Shown piece by piece: positions 50,581 through 64,000 of a stretch of 64,000 nucleotides of DNA. Origin of the DNA: Candidatus Parcubacteria bacterium. GTDB lineage: Bacteria > Patescibacteriota > Minisyncoccia > Phycocordibacterales > Zambryskibacteraceae. The DNA is taken from the NCBI GenBank assembly GCA_019661895.1, contig JAIFWO010000001.1:1181-65180 (forward strand), given 5' to 3'. Within the stretch, counting starts at the first letter, position 1, and each line of letters starts with the position of its first letter. The notes under the pieces are model-generated. The model had not been told where the DNA came from and ran no database searches. It worked only from the letters and a program-made list of their open reading frames with translations. A program made the translations under genes and the position numbers.

Positions 50581-52821
50581 CTACCTCAACCAATCCCCCG
50601 CCACCCAGCCATCTACTCCTGAGGAGAAGTCTACTTGCCACCAGGTGTATCCTGAGCCAGTCTGTGGTCCAGCCACGATCACTCCGGTTGATCCAGCTTT
50701 CTGCTGGCCCAAAGGCTTGCCTTTGGTGGTAGCCGTAGAGCGGACGTTTACCTTAGAGGTGGTAGTGACGAAGGAGCCGATCCCGAGGATAGTAGGCGGA
50801 GGAGTGCTTGGATCTACGGGAGTAAGGACTGAAACCGGAGAGGATTGAGCGGAAGAGTTGCCGGCAGCGTCCATGGCACTGACCGAGTATGAGTAACTGG
50901 TGCCAGCCACTACCGTACCGTCTGTATAGGAAGTGTTGGTAACCGTGTTGAGAAGCGCGCCGTTCTTGAAGATCTTGTAGCCGGTGACTGCGACGTTGTC
51001 TGTGGAAGCGGACCAAGAGAGATTCACGTGGGTAGTGTCTGAAGCTGTGCCTTGGAGGTTCTGAGGGACAGAAGGAGCCGTGGTATCTCCAGAAGTTGGA
51101 GGCGGAGGAGGAGGGAGGGAGATGGAACCGCTCCAGTCACCGGAGACTGCGCCTCGGGTAGCGTAGAGGACGGCGTCTATGTCTGCTCCTGGGTCAGAGC
51201 CGTCTGAAGCTTTGCCTTTGTATGGAGAGTTGGAAGAGAGGTGGAAGTCGGTGGAGGAGACGAAGCCGATGGCAGCTTTATTCTCAGGGTACATATTGTT
51301 TGGAGGGAGTGTCCAGGCCGCGCAGTATTTGTTCGGATCGCAGACAATGGTATTGTGGTCGAACAGCCAGCTCGGTGATGCCGCATTAAGCGTGGCGGTA
51401 CCATTCGCGCCACTACCAAAGATTGTGTACAGAGCGTCGCCGCCGACATTGTCTTGAATAACCAAGTTTGGCGCTGACGGGTCTATGATGCTCCATGTAT
51501 CGGTACTAAAGCCTGTGTTGTGAATGAAAGTTAAATTGGCAAAGCCATTGACAGTAAGGTACCGCCAAGGTGGGTTGTCTGCCCTCTGACCGACATCGAG
51601 GTTGTTCGCGATGTACAGATTCTTCATAGGAATAGTCGAGGTGTCGTATCTGGCGCTGAGCGAGTATAGTGAGTTTACATTCTTCAGCATGTTATTGCGA
51701 ATGGTGATGTCCGATGTCGTACACCAGCTGCAGCCAGAGTTTGCCGACCAGAGCGCAAAGCCCCAGCCCGCCTGATCTTGCTGCCAACTGTTCTCAAGTA
51801 CGTTTCCTTCGATAAGCACACGTACGCCTGATTTGAATTCAACAAGATTTTTTATCGATCGGTGGATGCCATCATAAGAAGGGTCGCTGGCGCGCCAGGA
51901 GAGCGGTTTGAAGATGTGGTTACCGCGAATTTCAACATCAGATGGAATGAGACCGGTGATATGTGGAGTAAAGCCGCCAATCGCAATGTTCTCAGCGGAG
52001 GCTTCGAGATAATTGTTATTAATCTTGTATGGACCAGGGCCATTACCCATAGTAATGGCTTGGACATCGAAGCCATCGTTCTCACATTTACTAATATAAC
52101 TTTCAACGACGGCACTCCAGGCGCTATGCAGACCAATGCACTTGCGGTTTTGCAACGTATCAAGTCCGTGTACATATGAACGGTCAAGTATCAAATGGTG
52201 AGGAACGCTTGCAAGCGTATTTTGGATGGTTCCTTCAGCAGTTCCGAAGGAAAGGATCTGGTTTACATCAGTAAGGGTTGGGGCTACCGTGACTTCAAGT
52301 CCGATGAGTCGGTAATAGTTCGCACCAGCCTCGGTATCCAAGGTCCAACTGTAATTCTGCCCTGTTTGTATTTTCGCGAGCTGAGATGCGTCGGTCGGCT
52401 TTACTCTCCTACCCTCCGGAGGCAGGGCACCATTGGACTTAATGACGATCCATTGATTGTTAGGGTTAGACTTGTTCCTTAAGACGAAGTTGCCGGTGTA
52501 AGTGGCTCCCGCTTGGAGGACAATGGTGTCTCCAGGCTGAGCGGTATCAAGAGCGGCTTGGAGGTTTCCGCCTGAGGTGACATTGATAGTCTGGCCACTC
52601 TGTGTTGGCATAGTAGTGTCCACGTAGGCTCGAGGGAGCTCGGCGGGGCCGGCAAAGCCGGAGTAGCTTTGGTTCACTGAGGCGGTATTAGGTCTTGATG
52701 CCGGAGCAGATCTGAGTACATATAAAGCGCCGACCAGAACAATAGCGACAAGGAACGAGCCGAATATTGATACTTTTTTCATAAGATTTGTTAAGCTTCT
52801 CATCCTATGATTATACCTCAA
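50581..52821 (-). CDS. secreted right-handed beta-helix (pectate-lyase-like) protein with C-terminal FN3 and SH3b domains, paralogue A
   Basis: An N-anchor is followed by QTINVTSGGNLQAALDTAQPGDTIVLQAGATYTGNF and parallel beta-helix repeats. FN3 reads APSVPQNLQGTASDTTHVNLSWSAS...AGNSS. The SH3b-like domain reads VNVRSTATTKGKPLG...GYTWWQVDF. Confidence 0.55.
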   Translation of the reverse strand: MRYNHRMRSLTNLMKKVSIFGSFLVAIVLVGALYVLRSAPASRPNTASVNQSYSGFAGPAELPRAYVDTTMPTQSGQTINVTSGGNLQAALDTAQPGDTIVLQAGATYTGNFVLRNKSNPNNQWIVIKSNGALPPEGRRVKPTDASQLAKIQTGQNYSWTLDTEAGANYYRLIGLEVTVAPTLTDVNQILSFGTAEGTIQNTLASVPHHLILDRSYVHGLDTLQNRKCIGLHSAWSAVVESYISKCENDGFDVQAITMGNGPGPYKINNNYLEASAENIAIGGFTPHITGLIPSDVEIRGNHIFKPLSWRASDPSYDGIHRSIKNLVEFKSGVRVLIEGNVLENSWQQDQAGWGFALWSANSGCSWCTTSDITIRNNMLKNVNSLYSLSARYDTSTIPMKNLYIANNLDVGQRADNPPWRYLTVNGFANLTFIHNTGFSTDTWSIIDPSAPNLVIQDNVGGDALYTIFGSGANGTATLNAASPSWLFDHNTIVCDPNKYCAAWTLPPNNMYPENKAAIGFVSSTDFHLSSNSPYKGKASDGSDPGADIDAVLYATRGAVSGDWSGSISLPPPPPPTSGDTTAPSVPQNLQGTASDTTHVNLSWSASTDNVAVTGYKIFKNGALLNTVTNTSYTDGTVVAGTSYSYSVSAMDAAGNSSAQSSPVSVLTPVDPSTPPPTILGIGSFVTTTSKVNVRSTATTKGKPLGQQKAGSTGVIVAGPQTGSGYTWWQVDFSSGVDGWVAGDWLR

Positions 52822-54675
52822 CTATTCCGATCTCATCATCTTCAAAAAGACCTCTTGGGGAATAGCCACCGTGCCCTTGCCGCGCTCGGCCATCTTCTTC
52901 TTACCCTTCTTCTGCTTCTCCCTAAGCTTCATCTTGCGGGTAATGTCACCTCCGTACATGTGCTGGGTGACATCCTTCTTCATGCCTGAGAGTGTTCGTG
53001 AGGCAATGATGCGGCCAAAAGCCTTGGCTTGGATCTTGAGGGTAAACATTTGTCTCGGGAGGAGTTTAGACAGCTTCTCGACCGCTGTCTCTGCTTCAAG
53101 CTCCACCTGCCTTCTGGAAATGACTTTGGCAAAGGCGGCCACTGGCTCGTCGGCTACCACAATGTCCATCCGGGTCACGTCGGCAGCGCGTTCCTCGGCC
53201 ACGTCGTATGAGATAGAGGCAAAGCCCGATGAAGCACTCTTCAATTTATCGAAAAAGCTTCTCATGAGTTCGCGCAGCGGCATGAGGAGAGTGAGCGAGG
53301 TTCTGTCTGCCAGCGTGTGCGTCTCCCCCACCTCGGCCTCATGCTCATAGAGAAGCTGCAAGATTGTTCCCAAATACTCCGGCGGCGTAATGATGGAGGC
53401 CTTGACCCATGGCTCACGCACGCTTGAGACCAAATGATCTTCCGGGAAAAATGATGGAGTATAGATCGTCTCTTCCTTGCCATTTTTGTATGTCACTTTG
53501 TACGTAATAGACGGCAGAGTGATGATAAGCGGCAGGTTAAACTCGCGCCGCAGCCGCTCGCTAATAATTTCCAAATGGAGCATGCCGAGGAAGCCACAGC
53601 GATATCCTCGGCCGAGCACTCCGGAGGACTCTTCCTCAAAGGAGAAGGCCGAGTCGGTGAGCTTGAGACGCAAGAGAGCCTGCTTAAGAAGGGTGAAATC
53701 GTCTTGCGACTCTGGATAGATAGAGGCCCACACCACCGGGCGAGCCTCGCGGTACCCTTCGAGGGCGGGCTCAGTGTCTGAAGCCGCCGAGACGGTGTCG
53801 CCTACCGAGACCACCCCAGGCTCTTTGATCCCGGTGACGATATATCCGATCTCGCCCTCGTTTAAGAATTCGGCCGGCGTCTCTTCGGGAGCGAAGATAC
53901 CCACCTCAAGGGCTTGGAAGGTCTTGCCCGCTACTTTAAATATCAAATTCTCCCCTTTCATGACCTTGCCACGCATCGCTCTCACAAAGACAATCACTCC
54001 CCTATGATTTGAATATTTGAAATCGAAGACCAAAGATCGGAAGGCGCCGAGCGTGTCACGAGAAAAGTCTGGTTGAGCAAGGCGACCCGAAGACTTTTCG
54101 AGAGGCAGGCTCGGCGCTGGAACTTTTGTTACAACAGCCTCGAGAAGTTCTTTTACCCCTTCGCCCGTCTTACCAGAGACTAGCAAAATATCTTTTTCAT
54201 CTACCTCAAGAAGGGTCATGATTTCTTGCTTCACTTCCTCAATCCTCGCTAAAGGTGAATCGATTTTGGAAACGACGGGGATGATGGTTAAGCCGGCCTC
54301 ACGCGCCATGCCAAGGGTGGTCAGGGTCTGAGCTTGTACCCCTTGAGTGGCATCGACAAGTAAGATCGAGCCCTCCACGGCCTTAAGCGCTCTTGAGACC
54401 TCGTAGGAGAAGTCGATGTGCCCGGGGGTGTCGATGAGATTAAGGATAAAATCTGGTCCCTCGCGATGCTCGGGACCTTCAGGATGATAAATCATCCTTA
54501 CGGGTTGCATCTTGATAGTAATCCCCCTTTCGCGCTCGAGCTCCATCGAGTCGAGGACTTGTTCCTTCATCTTCCGCTTCTCGATAGTACCAGTCAGCTC
54601 AAGCATCCTGTCAGCCAAAGTGGACTTGCCGTGATCAATATGAGCAATGATTGAGAAGTTTCGAATATGATCCAT
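52822..54675 (-). CDS. lepA: elongation factor 4
   Basis: The N-terminus reads [23 protein letters not shown]. The LepA-specific C-terminal domain is present. Confidence 0.95.
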   Translation of the reverse strand: MDHIRNFSIIAHIDHGKSTLADRMLELTGTIEKRKMKEQVLDSMELERERGITIKMQPVRMIYHPEGPEHREGPDFILNLIDTPGHIDFSYEVSRALKAVEGSILLVDATQGVQAQTLTTLGMAREAGLTIIPVVSKIDSPLARIEEVKQEIMTLLEVDEKDILLVSGKTGEGVKELLEAVVTKVPAPSLPLEKSSGRLAQPDFSRDTLGAFRSLVFDFKYSNHRGVIVFVRAMRGKVMKGENLIFKVAGKTFQALEVGIFAPEETPAEFLNEGEIGYIVTGIKEPGVVSVGDTVSAASDTEPALEGYREARPVVWASIYPESQDDFTLLKQALLRLKLTDSAFSFEEESSGVLGRGYRCGFLGMLHLEIISERLRREFNLPLIITLPSITYKVTYKNGKEETIYTPSFFPEDHLVSSVREPWVKASIITPPEYLGTILQLLYEHEAEVGETHTLADRTSLTLLMPLRELMRSFFDKLKSASSGFASISYDVAEERAADVTRMDIVVADEPVAAFAKVISRRQVELEAETAVEKLSKLLPRQMFTLKIQAKAFGRIIASRTLSGMKKDVTQHMYGGDITRKMKLREKQKKGKKKMAERGKGTVAIPQEVFLKMMRSE

Positions 54676-54686
54676 GGCACCTTACG

Positions 54687-56366
54687 CTACACGATTTCGG
54701 GATTCTGGGCAATGACTTTGGCCTTCCAGAACTTGGCATGGACAGCTCTCCAGGACTCCGCGAGTTCGCGAGAGCCGAGGAGCCGAAGGACTAAGATCCC
54801 AATGACAATACCTACCATACCCGCTACGAGGCCTTGGAGGAAGATGCCTGGAAGAGTATTGAGGTTAAAGAGCGGCGCGAAGAGGGTAAGAGCAATATGG
54901 CTGGCGTAACCCATAACTACCGAGGCGCTCGAGCATTCAAAGAGAGTCCGCTTAACAGACTTCGAGAATCCGCCATACTCTCGCTCAAAGCCGATCCAGT
55001 GCACCACGCCGTTAATGATCGTACCGACCGAGTAGCCCAAGGGCAGCATAAGCACCGCCGCGCTCCCAGAGAGATCATCGACCTTAAGAAGTGCCGTGAT
55101 GAAATAACGGAAGCCTTCGAAACTGTAAAATACTTTTACAAAGAAATATGTGCAAGCGATCAAGATGCCCGTGGAAGCAAGATTAATAAGCAAGGGCTTC
55201 CTGGTCTGCCCCGCCGAGTAGAAGGCTCTGATGAAAAGAAGTAGCAAACTTTGGAAAAGGGCCGAGACAGAGAAGATGGCCAGGGCGGCGGCGGTGAGTC
55301 GGGTGTCGTCCCAATTGAAGCGGCCCGTGCCGAGGAGCACGCGCACGATCTGCGCTCTTAAGACAATGAAGAGCGCCGTCACCGGCAGAGACCAGAAGAT
55401 GATATGCCGCGTCGTGGTCGCCATCTGTTCGATGAAGCCTTGTATATTTTTCTGCGAGAAGTATCGCGAGAGCGTCGGGAAGACTGCCAAAGAATACGAG
55501 ACTCCGATGATGGAGAGCGGCACCGAAGAAATATTGAAGGAGAAGGAGTATATGGAGATCGACCCGACGGCCATGAGCGAGGCCAAAGAGACTAGAAAGA
55601 TCGTGGATATATGGTTAATGGAGAGCGTCAGGGTGCGCGGGAAGGAGAGCAGCACCACTCTTCGAATGGAAGCGAAGTCGAAGAAGGCCTTGAACCTCGG
55701 CATGAGGCCCATCTTTATCACGTAGGGAATCTGGATAAGGGCATGGAGAAGCGCTCCCAGAGCTACTCCCCAGGCCACGCCCATGACACCGAACTTAGGC
55801 ACAAGAATTAAGACGCCTAGAATAATACCGGCATTGTAGACTACCGGCGCGAAGGCATAGACCAAGAAGCGGTTATAGGCCTGAGTGAGCGAGCCGAAGA
55901 GATTCGAGAAGCCGAGGAATATCGGCGAAAGCAGTAAGATCCTCGAGAGCAAGATGACCTGCGAGAGCGCCTCGCCAGAAAGGCCTTTAAAGAGAATGGG
56001 AGAGAACACCGGGATAAGGAAGTATGCCAGACCGCAGACGATGATGATGAGGAAGGAGAAGAACGAGAAGATATCATTTATAAACTCCTTGACCGCCTCT
56101 CTCCCCTCTTCCTCACGTTCCACGATGAAGGGCACGATCACCGAAAGCGAGACGATCGAGGCCACAGTGACGAACAGGAAGTCCGGAATGCGGAAGGCCG
56201 CGTAGTAGGTATCGAGCTCACTACCGGCACCGAAAACGTGCGCCAGTAAGCGATCTCGCAGGAAGGCCAGCACCTGGCTCAAGAGAGCAAAGAAGCCAAG
56301 AAGATACGCCGCCTGATGGAGAGTGGAGGTCTCCTTATAGAGAAGGGTAAGAAACTTCTTGACCAT
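54687..56366 (-). CDS. murJ: lipid II flippase MurJ (MviN)
   Basis: 14-TM MOP-family organisation, ending FGAGSELDTYYAAFRIPDF. Confidence 0.85.
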   Translation of the reverse strand: MVKKFLTLLYKETSTLHQAAYLLGFFALLSQVLAFLRDRLLAHVFGAGSELDTYYAAFRIPDFLFVTVASIVSLSVIVPFIVEREEEGREAVKEFINDIFSFFSFLIIIVCGLAYFLIPVFSPILFKGLSGEALSQVILLSRILLLSPIFLGFSNLFGSLTQAYNRFLVYAFAPVVYNAGIILGVLILVPKFGVMGVAWGVALGALLHALIQIPYVIKMGLMPRFKAFFDFASIRRVVLLSFPRTLTLSINHISTIFLVSLASLMAVGSISIYSFSFNISSVPLSIIGVSYSLAVFPTLSRYFSQKNIQGFIEQMATTTRHIIFWSLPVTALFIVLRAQIVRVLLGTGRFNWDDTRLTAAALAIFSVSALFQSLLLLFIRAFYSAGQTRKPLLINLASTGILIACTYFFVKVFYSFEGFRYFITALLKVDDLSGSAAVLMLPLGYSVGTIINGVVHWIGFEREYGGFSKSVKRTLFECSSASVVMGYASHIALTLFAPLFNLNTLPGIFLQGLVAGMVGIVIGILVLRLLGSRELAESWRAVHAKFWKAKVIAQNPEIV

Positions 56367-56367
56367 C

Positions 56368-58818
56368 TTATTCCTGCGTAGCGGTACTCTTTATGGGAGG
56401 GGTGGAACGCTTCTCGGGCTTCTTGGCGCTGGCCGGAGCTTTGTAGAAGGCGTCATGTCCCGCTTCAAGATTGGCGAGGATAGAGGCTACGTCGGCATTG
56501 TCTGGATTCGACGCAGCCAGGTCCTTAAATTCTCGGATGGCCTCTTCATGAGCCCCGAGTTTGTCCAATGAGAGGCCCAAGAAATATTTGGCGTTGGCAT
56601 ACTCTGGGACGATCTCGACGGCACGCTTCAGAGCCTGGGCAGCACCTAAGTAATCCTGAGTGGTGTACTTAAGAAGGCCAAGCTCGAAGAAGACTCCGGC
56701 ATTGTTGGGAGAGAGGATGGCCGTAGCCTCTGCCGCCTGGATGGCTTCAGCGACATTATTCTCCTGGACGTCGAGTTGCGTGAGGAGGAAGTAGGCGTCG
56801 ACGTAATCCTGCTTCTTCTGGATCGCGCTTTGGATATGGGTGCGGGCCTCTGCGGCGTTCCCATGATCGATCTCCAAACGAGCCATGAGGAGAGAGGGCT
56901 CGGGATTCTCGGGGCTCAATTTTTGCGCTGCTTCATAGGCACCTCGGGCGCTCTCATAAGCACCAGCTACCGCCAAAGGTTTCGGCACTAAGGCGGCGTA
57001 GACTCGGCCAAGTCTCACCCAGTTTTGATAATTGCCGGGATTTACTTTAGTGGCATTGTCTGCAGCCGCGATGCTCTTTTGGAAGACTGCCTGGAATGCA
57101 GTCTGCGTGGCCTCAGGCGTAGTAGTCGGGTTTTGGAGGATGCCTTGCGCTCGGGCAAAGGAGAGCTCGGAAAGCGAACCATAATAAATATCTGCTGGCG
57201 AGAGAGAGATGGCACGATCAAGCTCTGACTCTATCTTGTCAGCAGAGCTACCGACAACTCGGGAGAGGGCCAAAGCTCGCTCGAAGTGGAAGATCGAGGC
57301 CACCTTCTGGTATGAGACAAGCGCCAAAGAGAGTGAGCCGATCCCGATGATGATAATGACGAGGACAGAGGCGAAGTTGAGCGCCGGAGAACTGCGGAAG
57401 TGAAGTGTGCGGGAAGCGATAATACCGCCGGTTGCGGCCGAAGCCACGAAGAGTCCAGTAAAGATGAAGGCCAAAACGAGAAGGGCCGCGCTCGGCACGT
57501 AGAAGAAGGCCGCCGCCCACAAGAAGAGCGCTCCGACAAAAGAGGAGACGATGGCGAAACGCTCGGAGTTTTTAGAAATATTCCTTAGCGATCGCGCCCC
57601 AAGGATAAGAAGGGCGAGAAGAAAGCCAAGCCACATTAACCCACCAAGGAGGCCGGTAGTGGCAAGCATGGTCGGGATGAATCCAACGCCTGCTGGGAAG
57701 GCCACGTTCCAGAAGGTGGTGGTATTGATGGCCGAAGGCTTGTAGAGGAGCCAATCCTGGTCAAAGGTATTTGGCCCTGAGCCAAGGAGAGCCTCTTTGG
57801 CCAAGACCCGCCTAGCTACCGAGATGGTGGAGGAGAAGGATGGACGCACATCTGAGGTAACGATATGGAATTTATTGGAAAGCGCCGCACCAAGCGAACC
57901 TTCTGATAAGAAGGTCGGATTAATGGTAAAGATCAGAGACAGTGCCAAAAGGATGCCGACAGGCACTAAGCGCGAGAGCTTCCAAGTGCTGCGAGCTTCC
58001 ACTGTCGAGCGTTCGACCGTAAGGAAGTAAACCGCGGTGATGAGAGAGACCCCGAGAGTGATATACCAGGCTGTCGAGAAGTTGAGCACAGCCACTAGGA
58101 AGATAGACAGAAGGAAAATTATATAGACGATCGCTCTCCACGACTTGCGCAAGGTGAGCATCTCTAGCGCGAAGATGCAGATGATGGAGAGGAGCGCAAA
58201 GCCGACGGCGTAATCCGTCCAAGCGCCAATGGGACTCGCGGTAGCGTCCGGGAAGGCGCCAAAGACAAATGTATTGCCGCCAGTCGCAAGCTTAACAAGC
58301 GCGAAGACCAGCAAGAGGACCGCCGAGAGGAAGAAGGCGCCATACACCCGCAAGAGTCTCCCGGTATCCGTGACCGTAAGCGCCGACAGAAGAAAAAAGA
58401 TGGAACCCAAGAGCACGAAGGCAAATGTCCCAGTCTCGAAACTATATCCAAAGAGTGAGACCCCCGGAACCGAGCTGCCGAAAGCAGCCAGGAGATAGAC
58501 GAGCGGGAGCGCTACTACTCCCCACAGGACATAAGCTCTGGGGAGAGCAATACCCCCGGAGCGCAAGGCGCTGATCAAAAAGGCAATGAGACCCACAACA
58601 GCGCCAAGAGTAAGGAGTATGACCTTAGCCACACCAAGCGGCGCCAACGCTGTCGGGAGGAAGAATAGAGGAAGCAAGAATACAACAACGAGAAGTGTGA
58701 TGAAGCTGACTTTATAGGATGAATGCATAGCGTTGTGTTTATGATTAATGGATATATTGTAGCAAAGAAAGCTCTGCTTTGAAGCGAATTTGTGAATTAA
58801 AATAAGGCTAAACAGCAA
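56368..58818 (-). CDS. O-antigen ligase (Wzy_C)-like polytopic membrane protein with C-terminal TPR repeats
   Basis: About 12 TM helices are followed by multiple TPR-like helical repeats. The architecture is typical of Wzy_C+TPR proteins. Confidence 0.5.
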   Translation of the reverse strand: MLFSLILIHKFASKQSFLCYNISINHKHNAMHSSYKVSFITLLVVVFLLPLFFLPTALAPLGVAKVILLTLGAVVGLIAFLISALRSGGIALPRAYVLWGVVALPLVYLLAAFGSSVPGVSLFGYSFETGTFAFVLLGSIFFLLSALTVTDTGRLLRVYGAFFLSAVLLLVFALVKLATGGNTFVFGAFPDATASPIGAWTDYAVGFALLSIICIFALEMLTLRKSWRAIVYIIFLLSIFLVAVLNFSTAWYITLGVSLITAVYFLTVERSTVEARSTWKLSRLVPVGILLALSLIFTINPTFLSEGSLGAALSNKFHIVTSDVRPSFSSTISVARRVLAKEALLGSGPNTFDQDWLLYKPSAINTTTFWNVAFPAGVGFIPTMLATTGLLGGLMWLGFLLALLILGARSLRNISKNSERFAIVSSFVGALFLWAAAFFYVPSAALLVLAFIFTGLFVASAATGGIIASRTLHFRSSPALNFASVLVIIIIGIGSLSLALVSYQKVASIFHFERALALSRVVGSSADKIESELDRAISLSPADIYYGSLSELSFARAQGILQNPTTTPEATQTAFQAVFQKSIAAADNATKVNPGNYQNWVRLGRVYAALVPKPLAVAGAYESARGAYEAAQKLSPENPEPSLLMARLEIDHGNAAEARTHIQSAIQKKQDYVDAYFLLTQLDVQENNVAEAIQAAEATAILSPNNAGVFFELGLLKYTTQDYLGAAQALKRAVEIVPEYANAKYFLGLSLDKLGAHEEAIREFKDLAASNPDNADVASILANLEAGHDAFYKAPASAKKPEKRSTPPIKSTATQE

Positions 58819-58819
58819 A

Positions 58820-58848
58820 TTGCAAAAATTTCAAATTCGTGATATAAT
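58820..58848 (+). promoter_or_regulatory. sigma70-like promoter of rnpB (TTGCAA-17-TATAAT)
   Basis: The -10 hexamer ends 7 nt before the P1 stem. Confidence 0.5.
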
Positions 58849-58854
58849 ACACCA

Positions 58855-59177
58855 TGGTGTCGGGTAACTGCTCCATAGCAATATGGGGAGGAAAGTCCGA
58901 ACATTCAGTCCCGACAGTTTTCTCTCGAGAAAAATCGCCGGGACACAGGTAGCAGGTAACGCCTGCCGAGGGCAACCTTAGAAGTGAGAACAGAAACGAC
59001 CCGGTTCAGTCCGGCTGAAACGCGCAAAATCTTTACCCGAATGCAAGGCCGTGTCATTTGCCTGTATGAAAGTACGGATAAATGAAGTGCCGCTCGATCC
59101 TAACGGTGACGTTGGGACCAGATAAATAGTTACCGTTCCGCTTATAGCGGAATACAGAATTCGGCTTATAGACACCC
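58855..59177 (+). ncRNA. rnpB: RNase P RNA (bacterial, reduced length ~320 nt)
   Basis: P4 reads GGAGGAAAGTCCG. The 3' conserved block reads ACAGAATTCGGCTTATAG. P1 pairs ggtgtc with gacacc. A terminator (atcccgc-gcaa-gcgggat + T-run) follows. Confidence 0.75.
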
Positions 59178-59232
59178 AAAATCCCGCGCAAGCGGGATTT
59201 TGTTTTCTTTCTATTTCTACTTTTTATTTGAG

Positions 59233-61722
59233 CTATCTCAAACTATCCACTACCCAGCCATCTGCTCCTGAGGAGAAGTCTACCTGCCACCAGGTATAAC
59301 CGTCGGCTTGCGTAGGGCCAGCCGTAATGGTGCCGATAGCCCCCGCATTCTGGCTACCGAGTTTGAGTCCTGAGGTGGAAGGCGTGGAGCGAACGGTCAG
59401 CCTCTCAGTAGTGGAGACACTAGAACCGATGGCTAGAGGAATCGGAGCTTGAGTCTTTACCATAGAGTCTCCTATGGCCCAGCCGTCTGTACCGGTAGTG
59501 AAGTCCACATTGTACCAGGTGTAGCCTGAGCCTTGAGTGGGGCCAGCCGTGATCTGGCCTACCGCACTCGCACTTTGGGAACCGGCAGGTTTGCCTCCGG
59601 TAGCGGGGGTGGAGCGGATGTTGGTCTTTTGAGTAAGTTGGATCCAGTCTCCTACCTGGAGAGTAGTGGTTGGAGGAGGGGTGGTGGGGGTACCAGTAGT
59701 GTTCGAGACCAAGACTGAGACGCTCTGACTCACAGTGCTATTACCTGCCGCATCTCGAGCGACAGCAGTAATAATGTGCGAACCGTCTGAACCTGCTGTT
59801 GTATTCCAAGAAGCAGTGTAAGGGGGAATAGTTTTCTCGGTATCTACATTGACCCCATCAACCTTGAACTGCACACCCACGACGCCTACGTTGTCTGAGG
59901 CGGTAGCGATTAGGGTGGCTGTACCAACGAGGGTAGTGCCCGCTACTGGAGTAGTAACAGAGACTGAAGGAGCCGTGGTATCTCCAGTAGTAGGAGGTGG
60001 AGGAGGGAGGGAGATGGAACCGCTCCAGTCACCGGAGACTGCTCCTCGGGTAGCGTAGAGGACTGCGTCTATGTCTGCTCCTGGGTCAGAGCCGTCTGAA
60101 GCTTTGCCCTTGTATGGAGAGTTGGAGGAGAGGTGGAAGTCTGTGGAGGAGACGAAGCCGATGTCTGCCAGCGTCACCGGATAAGAGTTGTTAGCAGGAT
60201 AAGGGAAGAGCCATGTTGAGTCCTGATCATTCTTTGAGAGAAGGAAGACGTTATGATCAAAGGTCCACGACTTATTAGTGGCGGAATCAAGTCCTTTTAT
60301 TCCACTTCCAACTGCATTGGTAATGCCATAATAACCGTCGCCAATTACGTTGTCTTGGAAGATAAGGTTAGCTGAGGGAATTGCGGAATCGGGAATCATA
60401 AATGACTCCCCGTGTATAAGCATTGTGTTATGCACGGCAGTAATATTGGAAACTCCGGCAATACTAAACTCTCTCCAGCCAGGATTGTCCGCATTGCGTC
60501 CGTAGTCAATATTGTTGGCAATATAGAGTCGACTCATCGGCACAGCAACTCCGTATACACCACTAAGACCAAATGGGGAGGCCACGTTCTTCAAGATATT
60601 ATTTCTTATGACCACGTCCGAGGTCTCACACCAAGTGCAGCCGCCGTTCTGGTTAACAGACCAAAGGGTAAAGCCCCAACCAACCTGAGCGTCATTCCAG
60701 GCATTTTCAAGCACGTTACCTTCCATAAGAAGGCGCTTGCCAATCTTAAACTCGATAACATTCTTCTCCAGACGAGGGACACCGTCATAGATACTGGTAC
60801 CAGAGCGCCAGGTGAGCGGGCGGAAGAAGTGATTGCCTCGTATCTCCATGTCATTAGGGAGCATGCCTTGGATAGCGGGGTCAAAGCCGCCGAAAGCAAT
60901 ATCTTCAGAAGAGGCCTCGAGGAAATTGTTCACGATCTTATACGGGCCAGGGCCATTGCCACCGGCGATGGCCTGAGTATCATAACCCGCTCCCTCACAT
61001 TGTGAGACATAGGAGTCGATTACCGCGCTCCAGGCGCTGTTGAGTCCAATACAGCGGCGATTCTGAAGCGTGTCATATCCGTGCACATATGAGCGGTCGA
61101 CAACGATGTGATGTGGAATGCTTGCTAAAGTGTTTTGCACTGCGCCATCAGACGTACCCATGGCAAGAATCGTATTTACATCGATAAGTTGGGGTGCGGT
61201 GGTGATCTCAAGACCAATGAGTCGATAATAGTTTGCACCTGGCTGCGTAGCCACTGCGTTGGCGTAATTTACCCCTGTTTGCAATTTGGCAAGCTGTCCA
61301 GCATTAGCTGGAGTAACTCTCCTCCCCTCTGGAGGAAGAGTGCCATTGGACTTAATAACAATCCATTGATTGTTAGGGTTAGACTTGTTCCTTAAGATGA
61401 AGTTACCAGTGTAGGTGGCTCCGGCTTGGAGGACAATGGTGTCTCCAGGCTGAGCGGTATCAAGAGCGGCTTGGAGGTTTCCGCCTGAGGCTACGTTAAT
61501 AGTCTGGCCACTCTGAGAGGGCATAGTAGTGTCCACATAGGCTCGAGGGAGCTCGGCTGGACCGGCAAAGCCGGAGTAGCTGAGGTTGACGGAGGCGGTC
61601 TTGGATTGAGGAGAATTGCGGGTGAGCGGCTTAAAGACCGAGATAATAGCGACTAAGAGCACGAGTAAGGCTAAGGAAGCGATGAGTGGTGATTTTTTCA
61701 TGAAAGCGATAATTTGATTCAT
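59233..61722 (-). CDS. secreted right-handed beta-helix protein with Ig-like domain and two C-terminal SH3b domains, paralogue B
   Basis: The N-region and an internal ~65-aa block (SSTDFHLSSNSPYKGKASDGSDPGADIDAVLYATRGAVSGDWSGSISLPPPPP) match paralogue A. Two SH3b-like modules end ...GYTWYNVDF and ...GYTWWQVDF. Confidence 0.55.
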   Translation of the reverse strand: MNQIIAFMKKSPLIASLALLVLLVAIISVFKPLTRNSPQSKTASVNLSYSGFAGPAELPRAYVDTTMPSQSGQTINVASGGNLQAALDTAQPGDTIVLQAGATYTGNFILRNKSNPNNQWIVIKSNGTLPPEGRRVTPANAGQLAKLQTGVNYANAVATQPGANYYRLIGLEITTAPQLIDVNTILAMGTSDGAVQNTLASIPHHIVVDRSYVHGYDTLQNRRCIGLNSAWSAVIDSYVSQCEGAGYDTQAIAGGNGPGPYKIVNNFLEASSEDIAFGGFDPAIQGMLPNDMEIRGNHFFRPLTWRSGTSIYDGVPRLEKNVIEFKIGKRLLMEGNVLENAWNDAQVGWGFTLWSVNQNGGCTWCETSDVVIRNNILKNVASPFGLSGVYGVAVPMSRLYIANNIDYGRNADNPGWREFSIAGVSNITAVHNTMLIHGESFMIPDSAIPSANLIFQDNVIGDGYYGITNAVGSGIKGLDSATNKSWTFDHNVFLLSKNDQDSTWLFPYPANNSYPVTLADIGFVSSTDFHLSSNSPYKGKASDGSDPGADIDAVLYATRGAVSGDWSGSISLPPPPPTTGDTTAPSVSVTTPVAGTTLVGTATLIATASDNVGVVGVQFKVDGVNVDTEKTIPPYTASWNTTAGSDGSHIITAVARDAAGNSTVSQSVSVLVSNTTGTPTTPPPTTTLQVGDWIQLTQKTNIRSTPATGGKPAGSQSASAVGQITAGPTQGSGYTWYNVDFTTGTDGWAIGDSMVKTQAPIPLAIGSSVSTTERLTVRSTPSTSGLKLGSQNAGAIGTITAGPTQADGYTWWQVDFSSGADGWVVDSLR

Positions 61723-61762
61723 GGAATTTATTATACCTCAACTATTCTGAGCGCAACATCTT

Positions 61763-62144: not shown

Positions 62145-64000
62145 TTACTTGAGTGAGACGTATGGCTTTAGATCTAAGTCTAGAGTCATACTTCGAAGTA
62201 AAGCGAAGAATCGCTCAAGGAATAAGAATCCTGTATCCCCTCCTCCACCGCCGCCACTGCTACCTCCGCCAGTACTACCACCGCTGCCGCTGCCGCCAGT
62301 ACTGCCTCCACCACCGCCGTTAGTGCCGCCGGGCACGATAGGACCCGAGCCATTACCCTCTCCTCCTGCGCCACCACCTCCGCGAACTGGTCTCGTTTGA
62401 TTAGCCTGAATAATGATCTGCGGCGTAGCCGTATGGGTGAAGTTGGTGACCGAACCAGCATTAGTGAGGCGGAAGCAATACGTCGTCCCGGCCGAGACAA
62501 ACGAGGTCGAGCGCAGGGCGTACTCAAGCTCGGTGAACTGGGAGCTCGTGAGGGCGTGCGCGCTGGTCTGATTGGAACCTGCCTTCAAGTATCCAGCGGC
62601 GAAGGTCTTGCCGTTGGGGTTAGTGAGGCCAGCCGAGTCGGTAGTCGAGGCACTGTCGGAGAAGTATTGAGAGAAGTCCATCACCCAATGGGTACTATTG
62701 GTCTCGGTGGCTGGCACGGCCATCCATGCGGTACACGAGCTCGAGGCCTGCTCAAGTTTATAAGTAATTCCAGAAGCGTTCCCTGCTCCAGCGTTCGAGA
62801 TCACGAAGCGCAAGCGCTTGCGGTCACCAACGTATACGTCGCTTGTCAGAGCTGTATCCTCGCTCGCAGCGTAACTTGCTCCGCTCTCAGAACCGTCGTC
62901 ATTGCGCCAACGATAATGGAGTTCGGTTAAGTTGGGCACATCTGCGACCGCGGGCGTGGCCGGAGAGCCGCTTGGGGCTACACCCGGCGTAGACCAGTTG
63001 CCGTTAGTATCTAGAGTAAAGATCTTGTAATAGTAAGCTGTGCCATTACTGAGAGAGGTGTCTATACATGATGCTTGTAAGCCGTAACATGCCGCTCGCG
63101 AGGCGCCCGAGAGAGTCGAGGTCGAGTACGCAGTTCCTTCAACTGGGGTAAAGGTGATGGCAGAAGTAGAAGCGACAACCATGACTTTGCTCAAATCAGA
63201 ACTACCAGGATTGGTCCAGGAGAGCGAGTTCTGAGTATCACCAGAGCTTACTGTCGAGGCTCCAGGAGAATTTTCTGAACCTACAGAGTAGAAGGTGGCG
63301 GGAGAATTTTGGCTGTTGTATTCAGTGGTCAGCCAATCAGCCGAACGCATACCTTGAGACATGTGTACTTCGTCAACCGAACCAACTACGCCCGCCGCCA
63401 AACCATCGGACCAGGTACCGATGCCAAATGCCCCCGCCGAGTCCGAGACAGTCTGAACACCACTTCCGATTGAAGTGCCGAAGTTGCCATTATCAACTGC
63501 CGTGCCATTGCGGTAAATTTTAAAGTCTCCACTGGCAGCGGTGGATCCTGAACCATTCCAGGTGACTGAGTAGTGGTCCCACTGGCCGGTGGTACCGACA
63601 CTTGAAGCAATACGACCACCGTAGAGAGTGTTGGTAAGATCAGAAACCCAGAAATAGAAGTCGTTAGTGTTGAAAAATCCCATGACATATTCGTAGCCAA
63701 GGCTGTTGTATTTCTGAAGGACGGTACCATCGGTCGTATTGGTGCGGTTGACCCAGGCTGAAAGGGTTATCCCCGAACTTGGAGTAAGAGTGGCTCGGTC
63801 AGCTATCGTAATACCGCGGCCGCTAGCCGTGGAAACTTGCCCGCCAGCAAACGACCCCGCTCCAGCGATTTTACCTGTCGTTGCAGTAGGAGGGCTGGCG
63901 TCAAGCGAGCCGTTGCCCAGACCGGTCGAGTCATTGCCGTTGAGCGTTGTGCCATCGGCCAAGTGAGAGACGTACTTGAAGCTGCTATCCCAGACTCCAG
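62145..64000 (-). CDS. large secreted LamG/concanavalin-A-like domain protein with FN3-like region and Gly-rich C-terminal tail (5' end outside window)
   Basis: The LamG-like block reads GITLSAWVNRTNTTDGTVLQKYNSLGYEYVMGF...WDHYSVTWNG. The open frame continues past position 64000. Confidence 0.5.
   Translation of the reverse strand, partial: GVWDSSFKYVSHLADGTTLNGNDSTGLGNGSLDASPPTATTGKIAGAGSFAGGQVSTASGRGITIADRATLTPSSGITLSAWVNRTNTTDGTVLQKYNSLGYEYVMGFFNTNDFYFWVSDLTNTLYGGRIASSVGTTGQWDHYSVTWNGSGSTAASGDFKIYRNGTAVDNGNFGTSIGSGVQTVSDSAGAFGIGTWSDGLAAGVVGSVDEVHMSQGMRSADWLTTEYNSQNSPATFYSVGSENSPGASTVSSGDTQNSLSWTNPGSSDLSKVMVVASTSAITFTPVEGTAYSTSTLSGASRAACYGLQASCIDTSLSNGTAYYYKIFTLDTNGNWSTPGVAPSGSPATPAVADVPNLTELHYRWRNDDGSESGASYAASEDTALTSDVYVGDRKRLRFVISNAGAGNASGITYKLEQASSSCTAWMAVPATETNSTHWVMDFSQYFSDSASTTDSAGLTNPNGKTFAAGYLKAGSNQTSAHALTSSQFTELEYALRSTSFVSAGTTYCFRLTNAGSVTNFTHTATPQIIIQANQTRPVRGGGGAGGEGNGSGPIVPGGTNGGGGGSTGGSGSGGSTGGGSSGGGGGGDTGFLFLERFFALLRSMTLDLDLKPYVSLK

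What the first reader, a model, noticed from the sequence alone, without database searches (positions are those of the whole stretch)
50581..61722. Two paralogous beta-helix/SH3b surface enzymes with mosaic near-identical DNA segments (gene conversion) and duplicated upstream leaders
Proteins 50581-52821 and 59233-61722 share a signal-anchor, a pectate-lyase-like right-handed beta-helix and C-terminal cell-wall-binding SH3b modules. Paralogue A additionally has FN3 with one SH3b. Paralogue B has an Ig-like domain with two SH3b.

At DNA level three blocks are almost identical:
- about 200 nt at 51073-51271 versus 59967-60163, with only about 6 substitutions plus one 3-nt indel.
- about 65 nt identical at 52516-52577 versus 61427-61490, within a ~90% similar 5' region.
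- the 5' leader ttatacctcaactattc at 52811-52827 versus 61732-61749.

The rest has diverged. This patchwork indicates ongoing recombination between paralogues. Together with the LamG giant protein (62145-64000), these genes look like a secreted arsenal for binding or degrading a partner cell wall. That fits an episymbiotic lifestyle.
Basis: partly seen in the sequence, partly recalled or inferred. Interest (0 to 1): 0.6.

Follow-up and report, generated by a model that had tools for sequence, protein, structure and literature searches.

The report
Two wall-tethered beta-helix paralogues, gene-converted
A soil Parcubacteria genome carries two old, diverged copies of a secreted sugar-polymer-processing enzyme with cell-wall-binding tails, and recombination between the copies has re-homogenised short stretches of them; this is real, but it is a familiar kind of event acting on an uncharacterised enzyme family.

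Summary
Genes A (50581-52803, -) and B (59233-61722, -) are paralogues with 59% amino-acid identity.

Each has:
- an N-terminal hydrophobic anchor;
- FN3 plus one SH3b (A), or Big_7 plus two SH3b (B).

Two DNA blocks of 291 nt (89%) and 208 nt (95%), an 18-nt leader and a short 3' patch are near-identical. The rest is 50-65% identical.

Gene conversion is well supported:
- Synonymous difference is 0.19-0.28 in the blocks and about 0.77 (saturated) in the core.
- Permutation gives P<=1e-4.
- In the core, B groups with a gene from another genome (196/200 bootstraps). In the blocks, A groups with B.

The leader is not simply co-duplicated. A related genome has the same motif (TATAAT, then ATG 7-8 nt downstream) at the same two positions, in front of different genes that encode PG_binding_1 proteins.

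The beta-helix family is large and has no Pfam or NCBIfam model. In free-living soil bacteria it lies in exopolysaccharide loci (58 of 62 loci). The Parcubacteria-type copies lack that context and are fused to peptidoglycan-binding modules.

The proposed role as an arsenal against a partner cell remains untested.

The parts
50581..52803 (-). Gene A (NCBI KW785_00370). It is 740 aa if it starts at ATG 52803. The ORF tool lists a TTG start at 52821; NCBI starts it at MKK (733 aa).
59233..61722 (-). Gene B (NCBI KW785_00395), 829 aa.
52810..52827 (-). Leader copy in the A slot: GAATAGTTGAGGTATAAT. It overlaps the lepA stop (GAA TAG). The TATAAT ends 6 nt before the ATG.
61730..61747 (-). Leader copy in the B slot, identical over all 18 nt. 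The TATAAT ends 7 nt before the ATG. About 22 further bases upstream weakly resemble the lepA 3' end.
52708..52782 (-). A: N-terminal hydrophobic signal peptide or anchor (MKKVSIFGSFLVAIVLVGALYVLRS). It is diverged from B's and closer to P0004's.
   Evidence: Read from the sequence. No signal-peptide predictor was available.
61627..61701 (-). B: N-terminal hydrophobic signal peptide or anchor (MKKSPLIASLALLVLLVAIISVFKP).
   Evidence: Read from the sequence.
52400..52690 (-). Conversion block 1, copy in A. It covers the N-terminal cap and first coils of the beta-helix, A residues ~40-125.
61313..61603 (-). Conversion block 1, copy in B.
51064..51271 (-). Conversion block 2, copy in A. It covers the C-terminal cap of the beta-helix, the poly-Pro linker and the first 8 aa (GDTTAPSV) of the next module.
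59959..60163 (-). Conversion block 2, copy in B.
51109..52686 (-). A: right-handed beta-helix domain. It keeps all 24 invariant family residues.
   Evidence: Homology to the modelled B domain.
60019..61617 (-). B: right-handed beta-helix domain.
50830..51069 (-). A: FN3 module.
   Evidence: Pfam fn3, 30.5 bits against a cut-off of 25.
50587..50754 (-). A: SH3b module.
   Evidence: SH3_3 at 30.8 bits as an isolated module; AF2 pLDDT 96; SH3b fold matches.
59764..59970 (-). B: Big_7 Ig-like module.
   Evidence: Pfam Big_7, 57.1 bits.
59467..59667 (-). B: first SH3b module.
   Evidence: Internal repeat and alignment with SH3b modules.
59236..59442 (-). B: second SH3b module. Its 3' end carries the 55-72-nt patch that is 83-89% identical to the 3' end of A (A 50581-50652).

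Best explanation
A and B are two anciently diverged paralogues, in direct orientation 8.9 kb apart, in a soil Parcubacteria genome.

Each encodes an exported protein with:
- an N-terminal hydrophobic anchor or signal;
- a ~530-aa right-handed beta-helix domain of a large, unnamed family;
- a Pro-rich linker;
- an FN3 or Ig-like spacer;
- one or two SH3b modules, which would tether the protein to peptidoglycan.

Shown:
- Short non-reciprocal recombination tracts (ectopic gene conversion) have re-homogenised the two ends of the catalytic domain, which are the N-cap with first coils and the C-cap with linker. The leader and a 3' patch were probably converted as well.
- The central groove-forming coils and the accessory modules stayed diverged or are non-homologous.

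Inferred:
- Conversion tracts survive only where both proteins need the same sequence. They stop where homology ends, as at the FN3/Big_7 junction.
- Crossovers between the blocks would delete rnpB, murJ and lepA. Only non-crossover products therefore persist.
- Both genes are driven by a slot-specific -10 element placed 7-8 nt before the ATG. This is the geometry of a leaderless transcript.
- The beta-helix domain is a polysaccharide-processing enzyme (lyase, epimerase or hydrolase) for an acidic exopolysaccharide.
- The Parcubacteria lineage took the domain out of the exopolysaccharide-locus context it has in free-living soil bacteria and re-equipped it with peptidoglycan-binding modules.
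- The two diverged grooves probably give two substrate specificities.

It is not resolved whether the polymer belongs to a partner cell, to the surrounding matrix or to the cell's own envelope. I lean towards non-self, at roughly 50:30:20.
For: Paralogy: 59% amino-acid identity over 728 aa.

Mosaic:
- Sliding windows show it at DNA and codon level.
- Nei-Gojobori pS for A-B is 0.28 in block 1 and 0.19 in block 2, against 0.77 in the core.
- Every other pair among A, B, P0003 and P0004 has pS 0.59-0.86 in the blocks.
- Silent-codon scan: 56/63 and 58/69 identical codons in the two segments, against 42% outside. The scores were reached by 0 and 2 of 20000 permutations.

Incongruence (NJ bootstraps):
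- Core: B+P0003 in 196/200, A+B in 3/200.
- Block 1: A+B in 133/200. Block 2: A+B in 176/200.
- Core dN is 0.26 for B-P0003 and 0.37 for A-B.

Age: lepA and murJ between the window and L002 have pS 0.72, so the tracts postdate that split.

Synteny with L002 is intact around both genes.

Leader:
- It occurs exactly twice in the window.
- The same degenerate motif sits at both slots of L002 and nowhere else in the 81 loci held at that point.
- The ATG lies 7-8 nt after TATAAT in all four cases.
- No -35 element was found.

Fold:
- AF2 pLDDT 90, pTM 0.91.
- A profile hit to 6kfn has E 4e-9.
- 24 invariant residues, including R, R, H, D, E and R, are kept in both A and B.

SH3b.

Family context:
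- 58 of 62 loci of at least 15 kb have exopolysaccharide markers within 10 kb: AsnB 54, heparinase II/III-like 40, UDP-glucose dehydrogenase 37.
- UDP-glucose dehydrogenase, AsnB and heparinase II/III-like are absent from the window and the six other CPR-type loci (candidate phyla radiation, the group that includes Parcubacteria). Only GT4-like hits occur, in L086.
- The CPR-type members are fused to SH3b or PG_binding_1.
Against: - No reads are available, so coverage across the blocks could not be checked.
- Only four sequences make up the clade. Formal recombination tests (GARD, RDP) are therefore thin, and the donor and direction cannot be assigned.
- The blocks are also the most conserved parts of the family at protein level. 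Part of the nucleotide similarity, though not the silent-site similarity, is due to purifying selection.
- The chemistry is unresolved. There is no Pfam, NCBIfam or CAZy-type sequence membership. Identity to the structural neighbours is 9-19%. The PsAly catalytic residues Tyr184 and Lys221 could not be mapped.
- The exopolysaccharide context comes from phylogenetically clustered Acidobacteriota loci, so the counts are not independent.
- The leaderless-promoter reading rests on geometry alone.
- In this genome the genes sit among murJ, a TPR membrane protein and divIC, and their slots hold PG_binding_1 proteins in a relative. This fits equally well a role in the cell's own envelope.
Confidence: 0.7

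Rival explanations
1. A is a recent copy of B (or B of A). The divergent parts, namely the signal region, the helix core, the accessory module and most of the SH3b, were later replaced by recombination with divergent alleles imported from other cells. On this view the near-identical blocks are what remains of the duplication, not the product of conversion.
For: - The pattern of alternating similar and dissimilar segments is symmetrical with respect to the two models.
- A's signal region is closer to P0004 than to B (nt identity 0.54 vs 0.42).
- B's core is closest to P0003. Foreign-like segments therefore exist.
- The gene family occupies three different slots in three related genomes, which shows mobility.
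Against: - It needs at least three separate imports from donors that are not seen. No pair has unsaturated silent sites in the core: B-P0003 pS is 0.82.
- For conversion, the donor lies 8.9 kb away in the same genome.
- The metagenome and genome scans found no relative above 45% identity outside the four-gene clade.
Confidence: 0.12
2. The near-identical blocks are an artefact of metagenome assembly or binning. The assembler would have collapsed the two paralogues, or mixed strains.
For: - The sequence is a single MAG contig.
- Each protein cluster has one member from one contig, so there is no independent assembly.
Against: - The blocks are not identical (89% and 95%). Their differences are mostly third-position changes that keep the reading frame and the protein.
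- The longest exact repeat is 67 nt.
- A graph switch at such a repeat would swap flanks. Gene order on both sides of both genes, and between them, matches the independent contig L002.
Confidence: 0.04
3. The blocks are kept alike by selection acting on the nucleotide sequence itself (an RNA structure, a regulatory site, an overlapping gene or extreme codon bias), with no recombination involved.
For: The blocks coincide with the protein regions most conserved across the family.
Against: - The same regions in P0003 and P0004 are saturated at silent sites against A, B and each other (pS 0.59-0.86).
- Predicted RNA folding is unremarkable (z -0.19 and -1.29).
- No overlapping ORF is shared by the two copies.
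Confidence: 0.03
4. Functional rival: the two proteins act on the cell's own envelope, trimming or remodelling a self-made surface glycan or the wall during growth and division, and not on a partner organism.
For: - Both genes lie in a murJ / TPR membrane protein / lepA / divIC neighbourhood.
- In L002 the same two slots hold PG_binding_1 proteins.
- In free-living bacteria the family acts within the producer's own exopolysaccharide locus.
Against: - No UDP-glucose dehydrogenase, AsnB, heparinase II/III-like or GT4 marker was detected in the 64-kb window. In the six other CPR-type loci the only hits are GT4-like ones, in L086.
- The rest of the genome was not available, so this is weak evidence.
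Confidence: 0.3

Closest known systems
Ectopic gene conversion between paralogous bacterial genes (the classic cases are the tufA/tufB and rRNA operon copies, and surface-protein families such as opa and pil; cited from general knowledge)
   Same: - Two copies lie in one genome.
- Short tracts have much lower silent divergence than the rest.
- The segments give incongruent phylogenies.
- The tracts end where homology ends.
   Different: - Here the copies are old and functionally diverged, and only the ends of the catalytic domain are homogenised.
- No silent cassettes or further copies exist in the window.
- Nothing suggests programmed variation.
PsAly, the PL31 alginate lyase of Paenibacillus sp. 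FPU-7 (PDB 6kfn; PMC6796002)
   Same: - It is the only significant sequence link in the PDB: profile E 4e-9.
- It has a right-handed beta-helix with a long cleft.
   Different: - The sequence similarity is confined to the first ~55 residues, the N-terminal cap.
- The window domain is about 230 residues longer.
- The catalytic Tyr184/Lys221 and the cation ligands could not be mapped.
- PsAly has no SH3b, FN3 or Ig modules.
Beta-helix enzymes encoded in exopolysaccharide loci: AlgG and AlgE4 mannuronan C5-epimerases, and the RbmB Vibrio polysaccharide lyase
   Same: - The homologues in free-living bacteria sit inside exopolysaccharide biosynthesis loci next to UDP-glucose dehydrogenase.
   Different: - There is no sequence-level membership.
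- The DPHD-type epimerase motif was not seen among the invariant residues (the motif is recalled from memory).
- The Parcubacteria copies are not in an exopolysaccharide locus.
Phage tailspike and capsule depolymerases, and SH3b-bearing endolysins
   Same: - Many structural neighbours are beta-helix depolymerases.
- The SH3b module is closest to that of the phiSM101 endolysin (4krt, TM 0.70-0.74).
- The build is modular, with an enzyme joined to a wall-binding module.
   Different: - There is no phage context: the neighbours are lepA, murJ, rnpB and divIC.
- There is no trimerisation or particle-attachment domain.
- Combining a beta-helix glycanase-like domain with SH3b is not the usual endolysin layout.

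Membership tests
Right-handed parallel beta-helix (pectin-lyase-like fold) | A stack of three-stranded coils forming a right-handed beta-helix, recognisable by structure comparison. | tested here: met
   - AF2 model of B residues 30-585: pLDDT 90.1, pTM 0.91, all short strands.
- Foldseek gives 74 hits at E <= 1e-3.
PL31 alginate lyase (PsAly type) | Sequence similarity over the whole catalytic domain. | tested here: not met
   [not shown]
PL31 alginate lyase (PsAly type) | Catalytic Tyr184 and Lys221 with cation ligands Glu181, Glu216 and Asp219 (PMC6796002). | not testable with these tools
   No residue-level structural alignment or model coordinates were returned. No Lys or Tyr is invariant in the family; Y183, K291 and K297 (numbering of the B 30-585 fragment) are only near-invariant.
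Any Pfam or NCBIfam family for the N-terminal 530 aa | A score above the curated cut-off. | tested here: not met
   Pfam gives no hit on the B domain even at E 10, and only a sub-threshold DUF2106 hit on the A domain. NCBIfam gives only noise. Some homologues carry a precomputed PF13229 Beta_helix annotation.
SH3b (Pfam SH3_3, PF08239) | A profile score above the gathering cut-off, and an SH3-like barrel fold. | tested here: met
   - The isolated A module scores 30.8 bits against a cut-off of 27, and 4 of 8 repeats match.
- Within the whole proteins the scores are 25.5 and 25.8 bits, just under the cut-off.
- AF2 pLDDT 96.
- The top fold matches are SH3b domains of wall hydrolases, TM 0.70-0.76.
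SH3b (functional sense: cell-wall binding) | Binding to peptidoglycan or another wall polymer. | not testable with these tools
   Inferred only from homology to the wall-binding domains of endolysins and NlpC/P60 enzymes.
FN3 (PF00041) in A; Big_7 (PF17957) in B | A profile score above the gathering cut-off. | tested here: met
   fn3 scores 30.5 bits against 25. Big_7 scores 57.1 bits against 24.1.
Ectopic gene conversion between paralogues | Segments with significantly lower silent-site divergence than the rest of the same gene pair. | tested here: met
   pS is 0.19-0.28 in the blocks and 0.77 in the core. The permutation test reached the observed scores in 0 and 2 of 20000 shuffles.
Ectopic gene conversion between paralogues | Phylogenetic incongruence between segments when orthologues from other genomes are included. 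| tested here: met
   Core: B+P0003 in 196/200 bootstraps. Blocks: A+B in 133/200 and 176/200.
Ectopic gene conversion between paralogues | The mosaic is not an assembly artefact. | not testable with these tools
   No reads were available. Indirect evidence: the blocks are non-identical and differ mainly at third positions; the longest exact match is 67 nt; synteny with L002 is intact.
Diversity-generating retroelement (template/variable repeat pair) | Mismatches confined to adenines of one copy, with one copy non-coding and next to a reverse transcriptase. | tested here: not met
   The substitution spectrum is mixed, with 10 types and no adenine bias. Both copies are coding and in the same frame.
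Leaderless-type promoter | A -10 hexamer placed so that transcription starts at or next to the start codon. | tested here: inconclusive
   A perfect TATAAT lies 6-7 nt before the ATG in the window (both slots) and in L002 (both slots). No -35 element was found. No transcript data were available.

The most novel reading that the evidence does not exclude
A soil Parcubacteria lineage captured a beta-helix exopolysaccharide-processing enzyme from the exosortase-type exopolysaccharide loci of its likely hosts, such as Acidobacteriota or Gemmatimonadota. It stripped the enzyme of that context and fused it to peptidoglycan-binding modules. It now keeps two versions with different grooves, which act as cell-anchored depolymerases to cut through host matrix. 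Functionally this resembles phage tailspike depolymerases. Gene conversion keeps the structural caps and expression signals uniform while the specificity-determining coils diversify.
Probability: 0.15. Interest if true: 0.65.

Novelty: new member of a known kind. Interest (0 to 1): 0.38.

Why it matters
As a phenomenon this is ordinary. Gene conversion between paralogous surface-protein genes is well known, and the tracts here are few and not very recent.

Two by-products are of moderate value.

1. The catalytic domain belongs to a very large beta-helix family: 2685 representatives of 50%-identity clusters at E <= 1e-30.
   - It has no Pfam or NCBIfam model and no characterised member.
   - In soil Acidobacteriota and Gemmatimonadota it is a near-constant component of exosortase-type exopolysaccharide loci.
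   - Its activity would be worth determining.

2. In Parcubacteria-type genomes the same domain is found outside such loci and is repeatedly fused to SH3b or PG_binding_1 modules.
   - This gives a concrete, testable candidate for how these small-genome cells deal with a partner's or a biofilm's polysaccharide matrix.

The conserved leader that marks two slots for envelope proteins is a small, testable clue to promoter architecture in an uncultured lineage.

Tried and rejected
- **DGR template/variable repeat:** rejected. The mismatch spectrum is mixed and both copies are coding.
- **RNA-structure constraint on the blocks:** rejected (z -0.19 and -1.29).
- **Further copies or silent cassettes in the window:** none found by tblastn or blastn.
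- **Leader as a general promoter motif of this genome:** rejected. There are no other copies with up to 3 mismatches, and the short form is no more frequent than chance.
- **Concerted evolution as a general property of the two slots:** not supported. The PG_binding_1 paralogues in the L002 slots are 56% identical at protein level and have no near-identical DNA block.
- **Rfam at gathering threshold for the B-to-TPR gap:** nothing was found. The E-value scan then identified rnpB.
- **Search for closer relatives, to date or orient the conversion:**
  - The genome-contig scan and the metagenome-contig scan found nothing above 45% identity outside P0003 and P0004.
  - The exact-sequence look-up of the NCBI version of protein A failed.
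- **Literature searches on Parcubacteria gene conversion and on CPR beta-helix/SH3b proteins:** nothing relevant was found.
- **Mapping of the PsAly catalytic residues:** not possible without model coordinates.
Full report
**Source and gene map**

The window is from an NCBI metagenome-assembled genome labelled 'Candidatus Parcubacteria bacterium'. The two genes are KW785_00370 (A) and KW785_00395 (B), on a 65,978-nt contig.

Read on the minus strand, the order is:
- a LamG-domain ORF that runs off the window end;
- a 126-aa ORF;
- leader, then B (59233-61722);
- a terminator hairpin;
- rnpB on the opposite strand (58856-59180, RNase P class A, 98.9 bits against a gathering score of 100);
- an 816-aa polytopic TPR protein;
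- murJ;
- lepA;
- leader, then A (50581-52803);
- divIC, then a glutaredoxin gene.

A and B are 59% identical over 728 residues. At DNA level most of the pair is 40-65% identical, with these exceptions:
- Block 1, A 52400-52690 vs B 61313-61603: 31 substitutions in 291 nt, 25 at third codon positions. It contains a 67-nt exact match at 52511-52577 vs 61424-61490.
- Block 2, A 51064-51271 vs B 59959-60163: 10 substitutions, 8 at third positions, plus a 3-nt indel inside the proline run.
- The 18-nt leader GAATAGTTGAGGTATAAT at 52810-52827 and 61730-61747. It is found only twice in 64 kb even with 3 mismatches allowed, against an expectation of 0.01.
- A 55-72-nt patch at the 3' ends, 83-89% identical.

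The TTG start listed for A at 52821 is unlikely. A, B and the relative P0004 all begin M-x6-MKK, so A most probably starts at ATG 52803.

**Gene conversion is well supported**

- The proportion of synonymous differences between A and B is 0.28 in block 1 and 0.19 in block 2. In the 380-codon core it is 0.77, which is saturated.
- In the same blocks, every comparison involving the two closest genes from other genomes is at 0.59-0.86. These genes are P0003 on locus L001 and P0004 on locus L002. Protein-level constraint therefore cannot explain the blocks.
- A scan of silent codons picks out residues 512-577 (56 of 63 codons identical) and 44-117 (58 of 69), against 42% elsewhere. The two scores were reached by 0 and 2 of 20,000 permutations.
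- Neighbour-joining bootstraps show topological conflict. In the core, B pairs with P0003 in 196 of 200 replicates and with A in 3. In blocks 1 and 2, A pairs with B in 133 and 176 of 200.
- Core dN agrees: 0.26 for B-P0003 and 0.37 for A-B.

The copies are therefore old. Their split is at least as old as the divergence of B from a gene in another organism. The blocks are later homogenisations.

Housekeeping genes of the window and of the syntenic contig L002 are saturated at silent sites (lepA and murJ pS 0.72). The tracts are thus younger than that split. With pS around 0.2-0.3 they are not fresh, so 'ongoing' is not shown.

**Alternatives**

- *DGR-type repeat:* excluded by the mixed substitution spectrum.
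- *Selection on RNA structure:* not supported (z -0.19 and -1.29).
- *Assembly artefact:* this cannot be formally excluded without reads, but it is unlikely.
  - The blocks are not identical, and their differences are silent and in frame.
  - The longest exact repeat is 67 nt.
  - Gene order on both sides of both genes, and between them, matches the independent contig L002.
- *Mirror-image model:* a recent duplication followed by several imports of foreign segments. This needs unseen donors, and no pair has unsaturated core silent sites. I give it about 0.12.

**Where the tracts lie**

- Block 1 is the N-terminal cap and first coils of the beta-helix.
- Block 2 is the C-terminal cap, the Pro-rich linker and the first eight residues (GDTTAPSV) of the following module.
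- Its 3' edge is exactly where FN3 (A) and Big_7 (B) stop being homologous, which is a natural end for a tract. Its 5' edge is sharp within homologous sequence.
- The blocks are direct repeats flanking rnpB, murJ and lepA. I infer that crossover products would be lethal deletions, which leaves only non-crossover products.

**The leader**

- In L002, the syntenic contig from assembly GCA_034680565.1, the degenerate motif RGYTRAGKTATAAT occurs twice, at the two equivalent positions: after the 128-aa gene and on the lepA stop. It was found in none of the other 80 loci held at that point.
- There it precedes two paralogous PG_binding_1 proteins of 257 and 256 aa (56% identical), and P0004 follows the first of them.
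- In all four cases a perfect TATAAT ends 6-7 nt before the ATG, and no -35 element is detectable.
- I read this as a slot-specific -10 element with leaderless-transcript geometry. This is an inference.
- The full 18-nt identity within the window goes beyond the conservation between genomes, which is 14-15 of 17 by eye. It probably reflects conversion as well.
- In the A slot the motif overlaps the end of lepA, which reads ...RSE* here and ...RSDS* in L002.
- The L002 PG_binding_1 pair shows no near-identical DNA block, so concerted evolution is not a general property of the slots.
- P0003 sits in a third slot, between HSP20 and an 80-aa gene. The family moves around within this neighbourhood.

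**Protein folds**

- The N-terminal ~530 residues have no Pfam or NCBIfam match.
- AlphaFold2 with a 71-sequence alignment gives pLDDT 90.1 and pTM 0.91, with an all-beta stack of short strands.
- Next come the AlgE4 mannuronan epimerase (25.8), a GH28 polygalacturonase (25.5), a GH87 glucanase, phage depolymerases, RbmB and PL6 lyases. Foldseek agrees.
- The only sequence link to a solved structure is PsAly. It covers just the first ~55 residues (E 4e-9 with the family profile).
- PsAly uses Tyr184 and Lys221 with a bound cation (PMC6796002). I could not map these residues.
- The family has 24 invariant positions, including two Arg, His, Asp, Glu and Arg. All are kept in both A and B, so both are probably active.
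- The SH3b assignment is confirmed. The isolated A module scores 30.8 bits on SH3_3. The AF2 model has pLDDT 96. The best fold matches are the SH3b domains of the phiSM101 endolysin, NlpC/P60 enzymes, LytB and lysostaphin.

**Family context**

- The domain family is large: 7393 representatives at E <= 1e-3 and 2685 at E <= 1e-30.
- Named members are mostly from Gemmatimonadota and Acidobacteriota.
- Two long contigs place the gene inside exopolysaccharide loci. The neighbours include exosortase EpsH/EpsI, GT4 transferases, UDP-glucose dehydrogenase, AsnB-type amidotransferases, a heparinase II/III-like protein, a polysaccharide deacetylase and a flippase.
- Across the 62 genome loci of at least 15 kb, 58 have at least one such marker within 10 kb: AsnB 54, heparinase II/III-like 40, UDP-glucose dehydrogenase 37, deacetylase 27. 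These loci are phylogenetically clustered, so the counts are not independent.
- UDP-glucose dehydrogenase, AsnB and heparinase II/III-like are absent from the window and from the six other CPR-type loci (CPR is the candidate phyla radiation, which includes Parcubacteria). Only GT4-like hits occur, in L086.
- In the CPR-type loci the domain is fused to SH3b (A, B, P0003, P0007, P0009, L086) or to PG_binding_1 (an 1839-aa protein in the Parcubacteria locus L011).
- The four closest genes are monophyletic (200/200 in the core).
- Neither the genome scan nor the metagenome scan found a relative above 45% identity.

**Most likely function**

- The proteins are exported, wall-tethered polysaccharide-processing enzymes.
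- The frequent pairing of the family with UDP-glucose dehydrogenase and heparinase-like genes, together with the top structural neighbours (a polymannuronate lyase and a C5-epimerase), points to an acidic, uronate-containing polymer and to lyase or epimerase chemistry. A hydrolase is not excluded.
- The diverged central coils suggest two specificities.
- It is open whether the substrate is a partner's matrix, environmental biofilm or the cell's own surface glycan.
  - The loss of the exopolysaccharide-locus context favours non-self.
  - The murJ/divIC neighbourhood, and the PG_binding_1 proteins that occupy the same slots in a relative, favour self.
Exopolysaccharide is a better-supported target class than the wall itself.

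**Verdict**

The feature is real and correctly described. It is mechanistically ordinary: gene conversion between old paralogues. It acts on members of a large, uncharacterised beta-helix family whose recruitment and re-tooling in Parcubacteria is the more interesting lead.

Noticed in passing
window 58856-59180 (+): RNase P RNA (bacterial class A) lies between gene B and the TPR gene. It scores 98.9 bits, just under Rfam's gathering score of 100, so the default scan missed it. It has a good TTGCAA-17-TATAAT promoter at 58820-48 and a terminator hairpin at 59177-59202, which also ends gene B. It is conserved in L002, where two ORFs (116 and 147 aa) had been called between P0004 and the TPR gene, the 147-aa one over the rnpB stretch.
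   Followed up: yes
L003-L083 (genome and metagenome loci of free-living bacteria): The beta-helix family has no Pfam or NCBIfam model, yet it has 2685 50%-cluster representatives at E <= 1e-30. It is a near-constant neighbour of AsnB-type amidotransferase, heparinase II/III-like, UDP-glucose dehydrogenase and GT4 genes in exosortase-type exopolysaccharide loci of Acidobacteriota and Gemmatimonadota (58 of 62 loci).
   Followed up: partly
L002 9177-9190 and 19332-19345; window 52810-52827 and 61730-61747: A slot-specific motif, RGYTRAGKTATAAT, followed by an ATG 6-7 nt later, is conserved at the same two genomic positions in two genomes. It precedes different genes: PG_binding_1 proteins in L002 and the beta-helix/SH3b proteins in the window.
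   Followed up: partly
window 52822-52830 (lepA 3' end): The leader overlaps the lepA stop. LepA ends ...RSE* here and ...RSDS* in L002, so homogenisation of the leader may have altered the LepA C-terminus. About 22 nt upstream of the B-slot leader weakly resemble the lepA 3' end, which hints that this tract was copied from the A slot to the B slot.
   Followed up: partly
window 50827-51027 (-): A's FN3 module is 34% identical (tblastn E 9e-5) to the N-terminal FN3-like domain of the L002 PG_binding_1 protein that occupies the equivalent slots. This is a weak hint that A is a chimera with the slot's former resident.
   Followed up: no
L001 542-3424: P0003 is the closest relative of B's core. 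It sits in a third position, between HSP20 and an 80-aa gene, about 1.5 kb from where A's slot would be. Its contig ends 541 nt upstream of the gene.
   Followed up: partly
L084 699-3065 and 3320-6373: Another uncultured low-GC contig carries two tandem beta-helix genes of this family. The second (P0009) has five SH3b-like repeats. P0007 has two beta-helix domains within one protein.
   Followed up: no
L011 8027-13546: A Parcubacteria MAG encodes an 1839-aa protein that combines this beta-helix domain with Big_7, FN3 and Big_13 modules and a C-terminal PG_binding_1 domain.
   Followed up: partly
window 42888-45349 (-): This region encodes a homologue of the L001 980-aa He_PIG/PKD/PG_binding_1 surface protein. 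It is another large wall-associated protein in the same neighbourhood.
   Followed up: no
window 62145-64000 (-): The LamG (Laminin_G_3) ORF has no stop codon before the window end, so its true length is unknown. It ends in a long Gly-rich tract. It has only weak similarity to the 2374-aa DUF2341 protein at the same position in L002.
   Followed up: partly
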